From the NCBI GenBank assembly GCA_964486045.1, contig CAZALK010000002.1, positions 128,001 through 192,000 of the forward strand: DNA of 64,000 nucleotides, written 5' to 3'. Below, in pieces: positions 4,496 to 9,381 of this stretch. A model generated the notes under the pieces. It ran no database searches. It had not been told where the DNA came from and saw nothing but the letters and a program-made list of their open reading frames with translations. This DNA comes from an uncultured archaeon. Its GTDB lineage: Archaea > Asgardarchaeota > Lokiarchaeia > Sigyniarchaeales > SOKP01. The stretch's first letter is position 1, and every line of letters begins with the position of its first letter. A program made the position numbers and the translations under genes.

Positions 4496-5224
4496 ATTTC
4501 ATTTCCCAAAATTTCAAGATCAATTAATAAAGAAATAGAACATGTTAAAGTTCAATTTCTCACTGAAAAGTTAGAATTAATTTTAGATAGAGTTAAATGT
4601 GTAGGATGTGGGACTTGTGCTCGAGCCTGTCCCGAGGATGCTATTTCTCGGGGACCAGTAGGAACATCCCGGCGATTTCCAAGTTTAGAAGACATTATTC
4701 CGGAAGTTTATGACCCAAAAGCTTGCGTCTTCTGCGGGACATGTGTTTTTTGCTGCCCTTTTAGCGCTTTAACCCTCAAAATAGATGGTCCGGTAATTGA
4801 ATTAGAAAAAATTCAAATTGTAAAGGAAAGAGTTGTTCCTAAATTAGAGTTTGAAGCTAAAAAGATTATTAGCCATACAGGAATTGAGAGAGTTGTTAAA
4901 CAATATACAGATGGTAATATAAGTATTAATGATGAAGAATGCCCCGGAGGATGTCAGACTTGTTTCGAGGTATGCCCATCTGGTGCAATATCAATACCCA
5001 AAAAGTCTGACAAAGGATGGGAAAAAGTTCCGAATGTAGAAGTAGATAAAGAAAAATGTGTTTTTTGCGGTGCTTGTGATAATGGCTGTCCTACGGGAGC
5101 AATAAAATTAGAAATTACTGATGTCAATACTTCAGGAGAATCAATTGAGATGTTTTGGGTACCTCTTTTAAAAAGATTAAAAACATTAAGATGGAGTGAA
5201 ACATCAGAAGAGGAAAAAAAATGA
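4496..5224 (+). CDS. fwdF: Polyferredoxin (4 clusters), FwdF-like; probable ATT start; absent from ORF track
   Basis: Open frame from ATT 4496 (in-frame TAA directly before, GAGGTG at 4484-4489) to TGA 5222-5224 overlapping the fwdD ATG; CVGCGTCARACP, CVFCGTCVFCCP, CPGGCQTCFEVCP, CVFCGACDNGCP. Confidence 0.85.
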   Translation: MSFPKISRSINKEIEHVKVQFLTEKLELILDRVKCVGCGTCARACPEDAISRGPVGTSRRFPSLEDIIPEVYDPKACVFCGTCVFCCPFSALTLKIDGPVIELEKIQIVKERVVPKLEFEAKKIISHTGIERVVKQYTDGNISINDEECPGGCQTCFEVCPSGAISIPKKSDKGWEKVPNVEVDKEKCVFCGACDNGCPTGAIKLEITDVNTSGESIEMFWVPLLKRLKTLRWSETSEEEKK

Positions 5225-5616
5225 GCATCGATAATTTGGTTTTAATTACATGTCGTACTATTGATCAAGGCGTGGCACTTGAAGGAGGAAAGGTATCAAG
5301 AGAAAATGTTCGTGCTGCTGGGATCTGTGCTTTTGATAAAGAGGATTTCAAGAAATTGGATTGCCTCGTAGGGACTCCCGTAAAAGTTACAACCGATTTT
5401 GGGGAAGTTTTGGTTTATTCTACAATCTCAGATGAAGGACCTCATCCTGGTATTATTTTCATACCTATGGGACCTTGGGCTAATCAAGTTGTAAATCCTG
5501 ATTCACAATCTTGTGGAACTCCTACCTACAAAGGGATGAAGGCATCTGTAGAACCAATTCCAAATGGTAAAGTTCTAGGAGCGGTAGCTTTAATTAATAC
5601 ACTAAAAGAGGTGTAA
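5221..5616 (+). CDS. fwdD: Formylmethanofuran dehydrogenase subunit D
   Basis: LITCRTIDQG, FIPMGPWAN, GTPTYKG motifs. Confidence 0.92.
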   Translation: MSIDNLVLITCRTIDQGVALEGGKVSRENVRAAGICAFDKEDFKKLDCLVGTPVKVTTDFGEVLVYSTISDEGPHPGIIFIPMGPWANQVVNPDSQSCGTPTYKGMKASVEPIPNGKVLGAVALINTLKEV

Positions 5617-5673: not shown

Positions 5674-6984
5674 TTGAAAGATTTTAAGGTTAATGATTAT
5701 ATCACGCTGAGTTTAGAGGAAGGAAAAACCGTTATATACATCGCTGGAGAAAAATTTCAGCAATGTAAATTTTTGTTAATAACCATTCCTATCGAAAATG
5801 TTACCAATTTTGCTGATATTGAATCGGTGGATGAAGCGGCTGAAAGATTAGATTATTCCTTAGAATATAACCAAACTTATTATGAAATTCCTCCAGAAAC
5901 AGAATTTTGGGGACATTGTAGTAATTTGCAAGTGTGGGTAGAGAATGACTATGACACTCGGATCCTAAAAAGCGACTTGGCATTTCCCATTTTAAAAAGG
6001 TTAGTAGATGCTGGTAATCTAAAAGCTGAAAGAGTCTTCAAAGATGAAATAGCCAAGAGATTATCCAGTGGTTATCAAAACGTAATTGAATTTCTTTTCG
6101 AGGAAGAATATATCAAATATCTAGGTAATAAGGAGTTATGGAAAGTTATCATTCCTTCCCTGGAGAAATTAAGAAAAAAAAACTATCAAGTTCGTTGGTG
6201 GGTTTATAATACCGAATTACCCTTGTTGTTGTTGAGAAGACTTGTTGATATTGGTGATCCTCAAGCGTATCACTTATTAAAAGAAGTAATTATTGAAATT
6301 CTTCAAACAGGCAATGGTATGAATATCGGAATGTTATACGATGGTGAATATATAAATCTATTATCGAGAGAGGAATTCTGGAGGGTGTTCGGTAAAGATG
6401 GAGCAATTTTAAAAGAATTCGAAATTCAAATAAGACAATATAAAATAATAACAATTAAAAATTCAAATGGGATTGCTCTCATGAAAAAAAGGAAAAAAAC
6501 AAATGAGGAATCCTCTTATTTCAATTTAAGTAATGGGATATACATTAATCAGAGTCATATGGTTTTTACATACGAAAATGGTCATATTACAGGAATCGGA
6601 GTTTGGAGCGATGATAAAGATATATTTGAGGTTTCTCTATTGCCGAGTGAAGTGGTCCACTTAACACATCTAAAAGAATTAACTTTAAGTAATGTTAACC
6701 TTAAAAGAGTACCTTTAGATATAGATAACCTAAAATCCTTAAAATCTCTTTCTTTATCACATAACCTAATTTCTGCAGTACCAAAAAAAATTTGCAGATT
6801 AGAACTACTAAAATATTTAGGAATAGGTTGGAATAAAATAACTTCATTGCCAAAATGCCTTAAAAATTTATCTCTTTTACAAGAAATCCATATATTCCAT
6901 AATCCCTTAAATAAAAGAACGAGAGATTTTTTGAAAGGATTAGAAAGAGATAAAGAAGTAATATTACACTTAGACTCTCCCTAA
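5674..6984 (+). CDS. Leucine-rich-repeat protein with Lokiarchaeia-type N-terminal domain
   Basis: FKVNDYITL..KTVIYI..FQQCKFLL and EFWGHCSNLQVW N-terminal motifs; C-terminal LxxLxLxxN repeats; TTG start 1 nt after the stub's stop. Confidence 0.85.
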   Translation: MKDFKVNDYITLSLEEGKTVIYIAGEKFQQCKFLLITIPIENVTNFADIESVDEAAERLDYSLEYNQTYYEIPPETEFWGHCSNLQVWVENDYDTRILKSDLAFPILKRLVDAGNLKAERVFKDEIAKRLSSGYQNVIEFLFEEEYIKYLGNKELWKVIIPSLEKLRKKNYQVRWWVYNTELPLLLLRRLVDIGDPQAYHLLKEVIIEILQTGNGMNIGMLYDGEYINLLSREEFWRVFGKDGAILKEFEIQIRQYKIITIKNSNGIALMKKRKKTNEESSYFNLSNGIYINQSHMVFTYENGHITGIGVWSDDKDIFEVSLLPSEVVHLTHLKELTLSNVNLKRVPLDIDNLKSLKSLSLSHNLISAVPKKICRLELLKYLGIGWNKITSLPKCLKNLSLLQEIHIFHNPLNKRTRDFLKGLERDKEVILHLDSP

Positions 6985-7171: not shown

Positions 7172-8526
7172 ATGGTTGAGAAGATTAAAACTAGCACCGA
7201 CGTGGTTTGTCCATTTTGCGGAAATAAACCGTAAATCGCTGTTTTACCGTAGCTTTATGTGACGACCTAGAAGTAGATATAGATATAAAAGAACAAAAGG
7301 TAGTAGAAGTTAGAAATGGGTGTCAGATCGGGTCAAAAAAATACTTTGCTTCAAATCCAAGCGAACATAGATACGAAAGACCTTTAATTAAAGATCACGG
7401 GTCTTATAAAGAAGTTTCATGGGAAGTAGCATTAGATAAGGCTGCTGATATTTTAGTAAAGGCTAAAAGACCCCTACTTTATGGTTTTTCAAGTACAGAG
7501 TGTGAAGCTCAAGGTAAAGGGGTAGAATTGGCGGAGATTTTAGGCTCTATTCTGGATAATACTGCTTCTGTTTGTCATGGACCATCACTAATAGCAATTC
7601 AAGAGGTTGGTTCTCCAACCTCAACTTTAGGTGAATATAAAAATCGGGCGGATCTTGTTGTTTTTTGGGGTTCTAATCCTGTTCACGCCCATCCCCGACA
7701 TCTAGGAAGATATAGTGAGTTCGTAAGAGGATATTTCAGAAAAGATGGGAGAAATGATAGATTTATAATCGTAGTTGATCCTAGAAATACCCATACTGCC
7801 CAGATAGCAGATCTATATGTTCAAGTAAACCCTAGTGAAGATTATGAATTAATCAATGCGATGCGGGCAATACTTAGAGGTGTTGAATTAGATGCAAAAG
7901 AGATTTCTGGAGTGTCAATGGAAAACATAATAGAGTTAGTAAATAAATTGAAATCCTGCAATTTTGGAGTTATATTTTTCGGAATGGGATTAACTCAATC
8001 GCTTTCTCACCACCGAAATGTTGATACAGCGATTTGTTTAGTAAGAGAATTAAATGACTATACTAAATTTTCATTAACAGCTATGCGTGGACATTATAAT
8101 GTTGCTGGAGCGAACCAAGTTTTCACATGGCAAACGGGATATCCGTATTCTATAGACTTTTCTAAAGGATATCCACGGTTTAACCCAGGAGAATTTTCTT
8201 CTGTTGATATATTGCTAAGAAACGAAATCGATGCTTTACTAATAGTTGCTTCTGATCCTGCTAGTAATTTTCCCGCTGCTGCCGTCAAAAATATGTTTAA
8301 ACATCCTTTTATTTCTATTGAACCACATCATACTCCAACTTCCGTAAATGCTGATGTAGTATTACCACCTGCTATTGCAGGAATTGAGTGTGAAGGTACA
8401 GCGTATCGTATGGACAGTGTTCCTCTCAGATTAAGAAAAGTGAAAGATGCTCCTGGGGAATGCTTAACCGATAAAGATATATTAGAGCGATTAATAGAGG
8501 TTGTAAAAAAAAAAAAAGGTGACTAG
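7172..8526 (+). CDS. fwdB: Formylmethanofuran dehydrogenase subunit B, interrupted by a 29-nt insertion; join(7172..7223,7253..8526) gives 441 aa
   Basis: Exon 1 MVEKIKTSTDVVCPFCG; exon 2 frame (xLCDD..NGC..RPLLYG..ECEAQ..DNTASVCHGPS..NRADL..HAHPRH..MRGHYNV..EGTAYRMD) is open from 7228 to 8526; the ORF track start at 7528 is internal. Confidence 0.93.
7224..7252 (+). other. Candidate bulge-helix-bulge (tRNA-endonuclease-type) mRNA intron, 29 nt
   Basis: GCGG(7218-21) pairs CCGU(7247-50); 3-nt bulges AAA(7222-24) and AGC(7251-53); inner stem UAAA/UUUA; removal restores TGC GGA ACT TTA TGT GAC GAC = CGTLCDD. Confidence 0.72.
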
Positions 8527-8529
8527 ATT

Positions 8530-9381
8530 ATTGGAGAAATCAAATTAAAGCTAAAATTAGAACCCAAATTTCCTTTAGAAGCTGAAAATATAACTATAGA
8601 TAAGTTTATGGGAAAATCAGAATCAGAGATTAAGAATTTAACTGTTTATCATGGAAATGAAGAAAAGACTATTGGAAATTTCTTTGATGTTTCAGGAAAA
8701 GGAGAAGATTTAAATGATCTAAAGATATCCATTGAAGGCAATCTCTTAAAAGTTAAACGAATTGGAGAAAAAATGACAAATGGCGAAATCCTAATAAATG
8801 GTAATGTGGGAATGCATGTAGGAAATCGCATGACTGGTGGCAAAATATTAGTAAACGGAAATGCAGATGATTGGGCAGGTGCAATGTTAAATGGTGGTGA
8901 ATTAGAGATCACTAGAAATGCTGGGCATTATGTTGGTGCTGCTTATAGAGGTTTTTGGAAAGGAATGCAAAATGGTATAATAAAAGTTCATGGTAAAATA
9001 GGAGATGAAGCTTTGACATGGGTAAATGGTTCAAAACCCGCAAAAAGGTTTCCCACTTTAAAGTGTGGCAGTGCTGGATCATTTCTAGGTATTCATGGTC
9101 ATGGAGGTACTATTATTGTTGAAGGGGATTGTAATCGATGTATTGGGGCTGATCAAGTACGAGGAACAATAGTAGTTAAAGGAAAAGTATCTAAAATTCT
9201 TCCTTCTTATAAAAAAATTGGTGAAGTAAACGAGATTGAGTTAATGAGTGGGGAAAAAATTAAAGGAAAATTCTTCGAATATAGCGGAGATCATTCAGTA
9301 GAAAAAAATCATTCAAAAATTGATAAAAAAACAGGAGAAATATCAAACAGTTCTAATGGAAGATTATTTATTGCCGTTTAA
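8530..9381 (+). CDS. fwdC: Formylmethanofuran dehydrogenase subunit C; probable ATT start upstream of the ORF-track ATG (8608)
   Basis: GxxMxGGxIxVxGNA repeats, GAAYRG.W.GM; upstream in-frame GEIKLKLKLEPKFPLEAENIT matches the FwdC N-terminus; AGGTGA SD at 8517-8522. Confidence 0.9.
   Translation: MGEIKLKLKLEPKFPLEAENITIDKFMGKSESEIKNLTVYHGNEEKTIGNFFDVSGKGEDLNDLKISIEGNLLKVKRIGEKMTNGEILINGNVGMHVGNRMTGGKILVNGNADDWAGAMLNGGELEITRNAGHYVGAAYRGFWKGMQNGIIKVHGKIGDEALTWVNGSKPAKRFPTLKCGSAGSFLGIHGHGGTIIVEGDCNRCIGADQVRGTIVVKGKVSKILPSYKKIGEVNEIELMSGEKIKGKFFEYSGDHSVEKNHSKIDKKTGEISNSSNGRLFIAV

What the first reader, a model, noticed from the sequence alone, without database searches (positions are those of the whole stretch)
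7209..7263. Candidate bulge-helix-bulge mRNA intron splitting the Fe-S motif of fwdB
Seen: fwdB reads ...VVCPFCG, then hits TAA (7232) in a 29-nt insert, and resumes in another frame as xLCDD, staying intact for over 420 codons. The junctions fold as a BHB: central 4-bp helix GCGG(7218-21)/CCGU(7247-50), 3-nt bulges AAA(7222-24) and AGC(7251-53), inner stem UAAA/UUUA, and an outer stem in register via three U-U pairs then CAU/AUG and GUC/GAC. Established: the archaeal splicing endonuclease EndA cuts after the 2nd nt of each bulge and RtcB ligates; the well-known archaeal mRNA case is cbf5 in Crenarchaeota. Applying that rule removes 7224-7252 and creates the codon A|CT, giving CPFCGTLCDD, the canonical methanogen FwdB motif, and a normal-length 441-aa protein. 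Inference: a spliced intron in a core C1-metabolism mRNA of an Asgard archaeon. I am not aware of this being described.
Basis: partly seen in the sequence, partly recalled or inferred. Interest (0 to 1): 0.93.

Follow-up and report, generated by a model that had tools for sequence, protein, structure and literature searches.

The report
tRNA-type mini-intron splitting Asgard fwdB
The gene for a core carbon-fixation enzyme subunit (FwdB) of this Lokiarchaeia-type Asgard archaeon is broken inside its iron-sulfur motif by a 29-base insert shaped like a tRNA intron. Twenty related alleles carry the same kind of insert, so the mRNA is very probably cut and rejoined by the tRNA-splicing enzymes, something documented in print for only one archaeal protein gene (cbf5).

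Summary
fwdB starts at ATG 7172, reads MVEKIKTSTDVVCPFCG, meets TAA at 7232, and resumes in another frame at 7253 for 424 codons. Removing 7224-7252 gives a 441-aa FwdB with CPFCGTLCDD, the motif of the solved FwdB 5T5I_B.

- **Not an artefact:** two separately assembled DNA runs hold the insert.
- **Not a pseudogene:** dN/dS is 0.04-0.06 with dS above 1.
- **Site A (this one):** 11 distinct alleles carry a 29- or 30-nt insert here.
- **Site B (7 nt upstream):** 9 further alleles carry a 29-nt insert there, as a textbook bulge-helix-bulge.
- **Shared architecture:** both sites have a 4-bp helix, two 3-nt bulges and a hairpin with compensatory changes. Cutting after the second bulge base restores the motif at both.
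- **Recoding ruled out as one mechanism:** the 30-nt variants are in frame but carry TAA.
- **Enzymes:** the genome encodes an alpha/beta splicing endonuclease and RtcB.
- **Other genes here:** fwdA, rpoA', EF-2 and a Rab-like GTPase carry inserts of the same geometry.

No RNA data could be obtained, so splicing is inferred, not seen. This scan has already reported such mRNA introns on other DNA, including other Asgard genomes. The papers I could search document only cbf5. Verdict: first reading supported; a new member of a known kind.

The parts
7172..7223 (+). fwdB exon 1: 17 codons plus the first base of the Thr codon, encoding MVEKIKTSTDVVCPFCG with Cys 1 and 2 of the 4Fe-4S motif
   Evidence: Exon 1, with a start codon, is conserved as coding sequence in all 20 insert-bearing alleles. 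Differences between alleles are mostly synonymous.
7224..7252 (+). 29-nt bulge-helix-bulge mini-intron; contains the TAA (7232) that stops the exon 1 frame
   Evidence: The junction is fixed by the variation pattern: AA before the cut and C after it are invariant, while the third base of the 5' bulge (7224 in the window) and the second base of the 3' bulge (7252) vary.
7253..8526 (+). fwdB exon 2: the last two bases of the Thr codon, then LCDD... for 423 more codons and the stop
   Evidence: TIGR03129 at 584 bits. Aligns to 5T5I_B from residue 15. The first 91 codons, upstream of the first in-frame start codon (TTG 7528), have pN/pS 0.14.
7218..7221 (+). 5' strand (exonic, GCGG) of the 4-bp central helix
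   Evidence: Pairs with 7247-7250. Cys2 is TGC in 10 of 10 site-A alleles and 8 of 62 intron-less ones. 95% of cells are paired.
7222..7224 (+). 5' bulge AAA; predicted cut after 7223
   Evidence: the first two bases are invariant AA and the third is A or U.
7225..7246 (+). Intron hairpin: UAAA/UUUA next to the central helix, bulged U7242, then C7229:G7241, G7231:C7239, U7232:G7238; loop 7233-7237
   Evidence: four pairs show changes on both sides. The 30-nt variants add one base on the 5' strand that pairs with the otherwise bulged U, read.
7247..7250 (+). 3' strand (intronic, CCGU) of the central helix
   Evidence: GC to GU changes keep the pairing in 2 alleles; one G-A mismatch in each of 2 alleles.
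7251..7253 (+). 3' bulge AGC; predicted cut after 7252
   Evidence: A invariant, second base A or G, third base C invariant (second position of the Thr codon).
7208..7214 (+). 5' strand of the exonic outer helix (UGUCCAU), separated from the central helix by three U-U oppositions
   Evidence: RNAalifold predicts this helix on its own. Pro is CCA in 10 of 10 site-A alleles and 20 of 62 intron-less ones.
7257..7264 (+). 3' strand of the outer helix (AUG, bulged U7260, GACG)
   Evidence: Leu is NTA in 10 of 10 site-A alleles against 35 of 62. Asp1 is GAC in 9 of 10 against 12 of 62.
5221..5616 (+). fwdD (operon context)
   Evidence: PF01568 and NF042908.
8608..9381 (+). fwdC (operon context)
   Evidence: TIGR03122 at 207 bits (cut-off 130.65).

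Best explanation
The 29 nt at 7224-7252 are an archaeal bulge-helix-bulge (BHB) intron in the fwdB pre-mRNA.

In the transcript, exonic GCGG pairs with intronic CCGU. This 4-bp helix carries a 3-nt bulge 3' of it on each strand. It is stacked on an intron hairpin on one side and on a weaker exon-exon helix on the other, a 'relaxed' BHB.

The heteromeric (alpha/beta) splicing endonuclease EndA cuts after the second base of each bulge. RtcB joins ...UGC GGA A to CU UUA UGU.... The joined mRNA encodes a 441-aa FwdB whose CxxCxxxC iron-sulfur motif (CPFCGTLC) is restored.

Shown here: the anatomy, its conservation and covariation, purifying selection on both exons, and the presence of the enzyme genes. 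Inferred: the cutting and ligation themselves, and which enzymes perform them.
For: 1. **Real DNA.** Two separately assembled DNA runs hold the insert without gaps. Several insert alleles recur identically in independent MAGs and metagenome contigs.
2. **Functional gene.** dN/dS between insert-bearing alleles is 0.043-0.057 with dS 1.2-1.8, the same as between intact alleles. The 91 codons upstream of the first possible internal start have pN/pS 0.14. Exon 1 keeps its start codon and MVEK...CPFCG in all 20 alleles.
3. **Site A.** Eleven distinct alleles carry a 29- or 30-nt insert at exactly this site. On the 10 aligned in A1 (L205 was read by eye only), 93% of cells pair, against 22-51% when partners are slid. 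Four pairs have changes on both sides, and 0 of 500 shuffles reach the covariation score. RNAalifold finds the three helices on its own.
4. **Site B.** Nine further alleles carry a 29-nt insert 7 nt upstream. RNAalifold returns a textbook hBHBh' there. 95.9% of cells pair against 31-44% when slid, with 5 pairs changed on both sides. The same cutting rule again yields CPFCGTLCDD.
5. **Junction.** The bases flanking the predicted cuts on the exon side are invariant, and the adjacent intron bases vary.
6. **One mechanism for both lengths.** The 30-nt variants are in frame but carry TAA. The 29-nt ones shift the frame. Only excision serves both.
7. **Exon codons fit the helices.** TGC 10/10 against 8/62, CCA 10/10 against 20/62, GAC 9/10 against 12/62. 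In site B the Pro codon is CCG in 9 of 9 alleles, against 1 of 62 intron-less alleles.
8. **Product.** It matches the solved FwdB 5T5I_B motif VVCPFCGTLCDD.
9. **Enzymes.** Two EndA-domain ORFs of 200-201 aa: one has a Tyr, a His and a Lys where I expect the catalytic residues from memory, not checked by alignment, and the other lacks the His. RtcB is present. Asgard archaea are reported to have (alpha-beta)2 EndA with the loop linked to relaxed-BHB cleavage (PMC5829648).
10. **Same geometry in other genes of this genome.** The rule restores universal motifs in rpoA' (GHFGH|IELARP) and EF-2 (AH|IDHGKTT), and rejoins the frame in fwdA (DGPW|EFALHH).
Against: - No RNA evidence exists. No RNA run was listed, so neither a spliced junction nor a circular intron has been seen.
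- The single-sequence fold is not exceptional (z = -1.2).
- At site A the outer helix is interrupted by three U-U oppositions. The central helix shows no double compensatory change, only GC to GU, and two alleles each have one G-A mismatch.
- RNAalifold also offers a slightly different register, with an extra U16:A51 pair and the AAA/UUU pairs shifted by one.
- A diverged intact paralogue exists (G000:C3:147912-149183, 33% identity), so this copy need not be the only FwdB.
- The rule 'cut after the second bulge base' comes from my knowledge of the field. Here it is supported only indirectly.
Confidence: 0.87

Rival explanations
1. Translational recoding: the ribosome gets past the insert by a -1 frameshift, by hopping (as in phage T4 gene 60), or by stop-codon readthrough, with no RNA processing.
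For: In most 29-nt alleles the exon 1 frame stop and the opening of the exon 2 frame overlap by 1-4 nt. In L086 the overlap is 22 nt, and L031 and L053 have no stop in the exon 2 frame of the region tested. A shift is therefore geometrically possible. The stretch is A-rich.
Against: - The 30-nt alleles (L068, L089, L205) are in frame with a TAA and would need readthrough. The 29-nt ones would need a frameshift. That makes two mechanisms for homologous inserts.
- Either route would put 10 or more extra, non-conserved residues between Cys2 and Cys3. All 62 distinct intact junctions kept for that comparison, and the solved structure, have CxxCxxxC.
- The insert varies as an RNA hairpin, with paired changes, and not as a peptide.
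- No matching take-off and landing codons flank the insert.
Confidence: 0.04
2. The insert inactivates the gene. This fwdB copy is a pseudogene or is dispensable, with the diverged paralogue on contig C3 taking over.
For: An in-frame stop follows 20 codons. An intact paralogue is present.
Against: - dN/dS is 0.04-0.06 at dS above 1 between insert-bearing alleles, equal to intact alleles.
- 424 codons stay open in all full-length insert-bearing alleles.
- Exon 1 and its start codon are preserved.
- The insert length is held at 29-30 nt in 20 alleles.
Confidence: 0.03
3. The insert is removed from the RNA, but not by EndA and RtcB; for example, by another endonuclease that recognises the hairpin.
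For: No enzyme assay was possible. Site A deviates from the strict BHB.
Against: - The geometry (4-bp helix, 3-nt bulges 3' of it on both strands) is exactly the EndA substrate.
- Site B is canonical.
- The cuts predicted by the EndA rule are the only ones that keep Thr in all ten site-A alleles of alignment A1.
Confidence: 0.05

Closest known systems
BHB intron in the cbf5 pre-mRNA of Crenarchaeota (Watanabe 2002; Yokobori 2009, PMC2738675)
   Same: A short intron inside a protein-coding sequence, bounded by an often relaxed bulge-helix-bulge. It is linked to a hetero-oligomeric splicing endonuclease and is patchily present or absent among related species.
   Different: A different gene (fwdB, C1 metabolism) and a different phylum (Asgard, Promethearchaeota). 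Two alternative insertion sites lie 7 nt apart in the same motif. It is part of a set of similar inserts in several genes of one genome. Splicing of cbf5 was shown experimentally; here it is inferred.
Archaeal pre-tRNA and pre-rRNA BHB introns
   Same: The same motif and the same predicted enzymes (EndA, RtcB). Cuts fall at symmetric positions in the two bulges.
   Different: The substrate is an mRNA. The exonic strands of the helices are codons, so synonymous sites are constrained, and excision must restore a reading frame.
BHB intron in the 5' UTR of Haloferax volcanii HVO_1309 (PMC7714728)
   Same: An mRNA that is a substrate of the splicing endonuclease, shown there by circRNA-seq and in vitro cleavage.
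   Different: It lies in the untranslated leader (46 nt), not in the coding sequence, and does not interrupt a protein motif.
HAC1/XBP1 unconventional mRNA splicing in eukaryotes (IRE1 plus an RNA ligase, RtcB in animals); from my own knowledge
   Same: Non-spliceosomal removal of a very short, frame-changing intron from a coding sequence by a protein endonuclease, followed by ligation.
   Different: The endonuclease (IRE1) and its twin stem-loop motif are different, and the event is a regulated stress switch. No sign of regulation was tested here.

Membership tests
Archaeal bulge-helix-bulge (BHB) intron | 4-bp central helix with a 3-nt bulge 3' of it on each strand | tested here: met
   Site A: GCGG/CCGU with bulges AAA and AGC, 95% of cells paired across 10 alleles. 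Site B: CCGU/GCGG with bulges UUA and UUU, 100% paired across 9 alleles.
Archaeal bulge-helix-bulge (BHB) intron | Flanking helices h (exon-exon) and h' (intron hairpin) | tested here: met
   The inner helix has 4 pairs with changes on both sides at each site. The outer helix is strong at site B. At site A it is separated from the central helix by three U-U oppositions, which makes it the relaxed type.
Archaeal bulge-helix-bulge (BHB) intron | Cuts at the symmetric bulge positions give a functional joined product | tested here: met
   In silico only. Both sites give CPFCGTLCDD and 441 aa, identical to the 5T5I_B motif. Invariant exon-side and variable intron-side bases flank the cuts.
Archaeal bulge-helix-bulge (BHB) intron | Cognate enzymes encoded (EndA able to take relaxed motifs; RtcB ligase) | tested here: met
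   Two EndA ORFs, each with PF01974 and PF02778, of 201 and 200 aa. RtcB at 557 bits. The L1 loop itself was not examined here; its presence in Asgard EndA is taken from PMC5829648.
Archaeal bulge-helix-bulge (BHB) intron | Spliced RNA and excised (circular) intron observed; cleavage by EndA | not testable with these tools
   No RNA run was listed for this DNA.
Formylmethanofuran dehydrogenase subunit B (TIGR03129) | Full-length match above the curated cut-off | tested here: met
   584 bits against a cut-off of 327.8, profile positions 10-420 of 421, for exon 2 alone. Best solved relative is 5T5I_B at E = 1e-155.
Formylmethanofuran dehydrogenase subunit B (TIGR03129) | N-terminal CxxCxxxC 4Fe-4S motif on one polypeptide | tested here: inconclusive
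   Not met by the genomic reading: Cys 1-2 and Cys 3 lie in different frames. Met only after the proposed splice.

The most novel reading that the evidence does not exclude
The fwdB mini-intron belongs to a population of roughly 30-nt BHB introns that interrupt many protein-coding genes of this Asgard lineage and still move.

- Possibly one intron family occupies two sites 7 nt apart in one motif.
- Intron-bearing and intron-less alleles alternate among near-identical sisters.
- In one case (L120) the intron sits in a short tract of foreign flanking exon sequence, as after a homing-like or gene-conversion transfer.

Asgard archaea would then hold a living system of gain, loss and sliding of mRNA introns, spliced by the enzymes that eukaryotes kept for tRNA and HAC1/XBP1 splicing.
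Probability: 0.35. Interest if true: 0.9.

Novelty: new member of a known kind. Interest (0 to 1): 0.8.

Why it matters
In the papers I could search, endonuclease-type splicing inside an archaeal coding sequence is documented for one gene family only (cbf5), plus one 5' UTR case.

Here a core enzyme of the Wood-Ljungdahl pathway in an Asgard archaeon can be made only if its mRNA is spliced. At least three other genes of the same genome (fwdA, RNA polymerase A', EF-2) carry inserts of the same shape.

- **Annotation:** these genes are currently called truncated. The database proteins from insert-bearing alleles that I examined have 427-437 residues and lack the first two cysteines. Metabolic reconstructions of Asgard MAGs could therefore score them as broken.
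- **Evolution:** the closest prokaryotic relatives of eukaryotes would tolerate, and perhaps spread, introns in protein genes. The presence/absence polymorphism among close species gives a tractable system for studying intron gain, loss and sliding.

Tried and rejected
- **RNA evidence:** no RNA holder was listed for the stretch. The only runs available were DNA contigs.
- **Spliced-form protein:** a search of 5.8 billion proteins gave no hit above 92% identity to this allele, so no assembled spliced transcript could be recognised.
- **Genome-wide scan:** I scanned for BHB geometry plus reading-frame restoration. It is dominated by chance hits at ordinary gene junctions. Only the in-frame 30-nt class exceeds the decoy geometries (27 against 9-17 with both sides at least 40 codons). 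The number of mRNA introns in this genome therefore remains unknown.
- **False leads:** a GCGG...CCGUAG look-alike at C1:233216 lies antisense to a continuous ORF. A hit at window 16858 lies in a continuous HdrB-like ORF.
- **Calibrating the cutting rule on tRNA introns:** this failed. ARAGORN finds only 31 tRNAs, several spurious, with imprecise intron borders.
- **A corrected error of mine:** I first thought frameshifting was geometrically impossible in L009. One search showed a 1-nt overlap, so that argument was dropped in favour of the 30-nt in-frame alleles.
- **T4 gene 60-type hopping:** no matching take-off and landing codons.
- **GU...AG borders:** they would remove 22 nt, which does not restore the frame, and they are not conserved in L009.
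- **Known RNA families:** no Rfam family matches the region.

Full report
**1. What is in the sequence.**

The window is G000:C2:128001-192000 of a 5.18-Mb, 31% G+C genome. Its relatives are labelled Promethearchaeota, the Lokiarchaeia-type Asgard archaea.

An fwd cluster lies at 5.2-9.4 kb:
- fwdD at 5221-5616
- an LRR-protein gene at 5674-6984
- fwdB
- fwdC at 8608-9381

fwdB opens at ATG 7172 and reads MVEKIKTSTDVVCPFCGNKP, then TAA at 7232. The frame that carries LCDD from 7255 is open to 8526. It matches the FwdB model TIGR03129 at 584 bits, over profile positions 10-420 of 421. It aligns to the solved FwdB 5T5I_B from residue 15. The gene is therefore complete except that its first 17 codons lie in another frame, 29 nt away.

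Removing 7224-7252 yields 441 aa beginning MVEKIKTSTDVVCPFCGTLCDD. The solved Methanothermobacter wolfeii FwdB reads VVCPFCGTLCDD at the same place.

**2. Not an artefact and not a pseudogene.**

- Two Logan-assembled DNA runs cover the region without any gap (depth 269 and 73). The first may be the source sample; the second is another sample of the same study.
- Pairwise dN/dS between insert-bearing alleles is 0.043-0.057 with dS 1.2-1.8. This cannot be told apart from pairs of intact alleles.
- The first in-frame start codon in exon 2 is TTG 7528. The 91 codons before it have pN/pS 0.14 among eight insert-bearing alleles, so translation must enter exon 2 from upstream.
- Exon 1 keeps a start codon and the peptide MVEK...CPFCG in all 20 insert-bearing alleles.

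**3. Comparative evidence at this site (site A).**

I compared FwdB loci from three sources:
- 40 related genomes
- GTDB genomes and JGI metagenomes
- eight further contigs reached through protein hits

Sixty-two distinct junctions are intact (TGY GGN ACN YTN TGY, encoding CGTLC). Eleven distinct alleles carry an insert exactly between GGA A and CT. Eight of these are 29 nt long and three are 30 nt.

- 93% of cells pair, against 22-51% when the partners are slid by 1-3 columns.
- Four pairs have changes on both sides, all in the intron hairpin.
- No shuffle out of 500 reaches the observed covariation score.

RNAalifold finds the outer, central and inner helices without guidance.

The three 30-nt variants have one extra base on the 5' strand of the hairpin. 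It pairs with the U that is bulged in the 29-nt variants (read).

The variation pattern fixes the junction:
- Alignment columns 21-22 (AA) and 53 (C) never vary.
- Column 23 (A or U) and column 52 (A or G) do vary.
- Cutting after the second base of each bulge is the only choice that gives Thr (ACN) in all ten alleles. In this window a cut one base earlier would give Ala.

**4. An independent test: site B.**

Nine other distinct alleles carry a 29-nt insert 7 nt upstream, between CCG UUU and UGC. One of them (L198) encodes the protein closest to this window's, at 92% identity.

The geometry is as follows:
- The exonic CCGU pairs with an intronic GCGG.
- The bulges are UUA and UUU (also UCU, CAU or UGU).
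- The exon-exon helix abuts the central helix directly.

RNAalifold returns a textbook hBHBh'. On this structure 95.9% of cells pair, against 31-44% when slid. Five pairs change on both sides, for example G:C to A:U at the first hairpin pair. The same cutting rule again restores CPFCGTLCDD.

So two different placements, built from different exon bases, obey one rule.

**5. Exon codons are shaped by the structure.**

| Codon | Site A alleles | Intron-less alleles |
|---|---|---|
| Cys2 TGC | 10 of 10 | 8 of 62 |
| Gly GGA | 10 of 10 | 20 of 62 |
| Pro CCA | 10 of 10 | 20 of 62 |
| Leu NTA | 10 of 10 | 35 of 62 |
| Asp1 GAC | 9 of 10 | 12 of 62 |

Most of these positions are partners in the central or outer helix; the A of GGA opens the 5' bulge. 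In site B alleles the Pro codon is CCG in 9 of 9, against 1 of 62 intron-less alleles.

These counts are confounded by relatedness. However, the intron-bearing alleles are scattered over the FwdB tree.

**6. Mechanism and rivals.**

The genome encodes two EndA-domain proteins of 201 and 200 aa. Each has both Pfam endonuclease domains. One has a Tyr, a His and a Lys where I expect the catalytic residues and the other lacks the His. I judged this by eye and from memory, and did not check it by alignment. This looks like an alpha/beta enzyme. RtcB is present.

Asgard archaea are reported to have (alpha-beta)2 EndA with the loop that goes with cleavage of relaxed BHB motifs (PMC5829648).

The rivals fare as follows:
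- **Recoding** cannot be a single mechanism. The 29-nt alleles would need a frameshift inside a 1-4-nt window. The 30-nt alleles would need readthrough of TAA. Either way, ten or more unconserved residues would enter a CxxCxxxC motif.
- **Hopping** lacks matching take-off and landing codons.
- **Pseudogene** status is excluded by section 2.

I put excision by EndA and RtcB at about 0.87. The missing piece is any RNA observation.

**7. Context in the same genome.**

Notes from other windows of this scan pointed to similar inserts elsewhere. I read three of them directly:
- **rpoA'** (C13:44095, 30 nt): helix GGAC/GUCU, bulges AUU and AAA, a 9-bp hairpin. The join gives GHFGH|IELARP.
- **EF-2** (C13:92012, 30 nt): helix GCGC/GCGU. 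The join gives ITAH|IDHGKTT.
- **fwdA** (C20, 30 nt with TAA): helix CUUG/CAAG, bulges GGU and ACA. The join gives DGPW|EFALHH.

A Rab-like GTPase and a thiolase-like gene look the same in my scan output.

My own genome-wide scan is too noisy to give a count. Only the in-frame 30-nt class exceeds the decoy geometries.

**8. Turnover.**

On a tree of 68 FwdB proteins, site A alleles sit next to intron-less sisters in at least six places. One shallow clade contains intron-less, site A and site B alleles.

L120 (site A) compares with its relatives as follows:
- It is 94-100% identical to its intron-less sisters over most of the roughly 600 nt upstream (88-90% in the first scored window), and 86-100% identical from about 350 nt downstream (100% in several windows).
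- It is only 78-80% identical to them in the 50 nt before the intron.
- In those 50 nt it is 98% identical to the intron-bearing L031.

This looks like a short recombination tract that carries the intron and its flanks. The direction, gain or loss, is open.

**9. Novelty.**

A 2020 study states that cbf5 is the only reported BHB intron in an archaeal mRNA, besides their own 5' UTR case (PMC7714728). A 2026 preprint on Asgard tRNA introns does not mention mRNAs. My other searches found nothing on Asgard protein genes.

This scan has already reported such introns on other DNA, including RNase HII, Rab and hypD genes of other Asgard genomes. The mechanism is a known kind. The gene, the lineage, the two alternative sites and the apparent mobility are new.

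Noticed in passing
G000:C20:3425-5143 (minus strand; outside the window): fwdA of the same enzyme carries a 30-nt in-frame insert with TAA. It has a 4-bp helix CUUG/CAAG, bulges GGU and ACA, and a hairpin AUGCGA/UCGCAU. Cutting after the second bulge base joins DGPW to EFALHH.
   Followed up: partly
G000:C13:44095 and G000:C13:92012 (outside the window): RNA polymerase A' and EF-2 are each split by a 30-nt insert of the same geometry. Removing it restores GHFGH|IELARP and ITAH|IDHGKTT. A Rab-like GTPase (C17, minus, 96930) and a thiolase-like gene (C3:186169) look alike in the scan output.
   Followed up: partly
window 5674-6984: A 436-aa leucine-rich-repeat protein gene sits between fwdD and fwdB. 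In the seven of eight relatives fetched by the look-up of encoding contigs where an upstream gene was called, fwdD ends about 50-60 nt before fwdB (about 380 nt in L203). This window's fwdB also lacks the GGAGG found 7-9 nt before the ATG in most relatives.
   Followed up: partly
L120 compared with L119, L118 and L031 (fwdB loci of close relatives): There is a short tract of divergent sequence around the intron. Identity to intron-less sisters is 78-80% in the 50 nt before it, against 94-100% over most of the flanks. Identity to another intron-bearing allele is 98% there. This suggests recombination that carries the intron together with its flanking exon bases.
   Followed up: partly
L198 (JGI contig Ga0452210_186744), 375-439: The FwdB closest to this window's (92% identity) has its intron at site B, 7 nt upstream of this window's site A. 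The position has therefore changed between very close relatives.
   Followed up: yes
whole genome G000: ARAGORN finds only 31 tRNA genes in 5.18 Mb. Twenty are called with introns and several calls are spurious (Pyl, Stop). This fits heavily interrupted tRNA genes, as a 2026 preprint reports for some Asgard archaea.
   Followed up: no
G000:C3:147912-149183 and C3:149617-151251 (outside the window): A second, diverged and uninterrupted fwdB (33% identity) lies beside a second fwdA-like gene. The genome may therefore hold two formylmethanofuran dehydrogenase sets.
   Followed up: no
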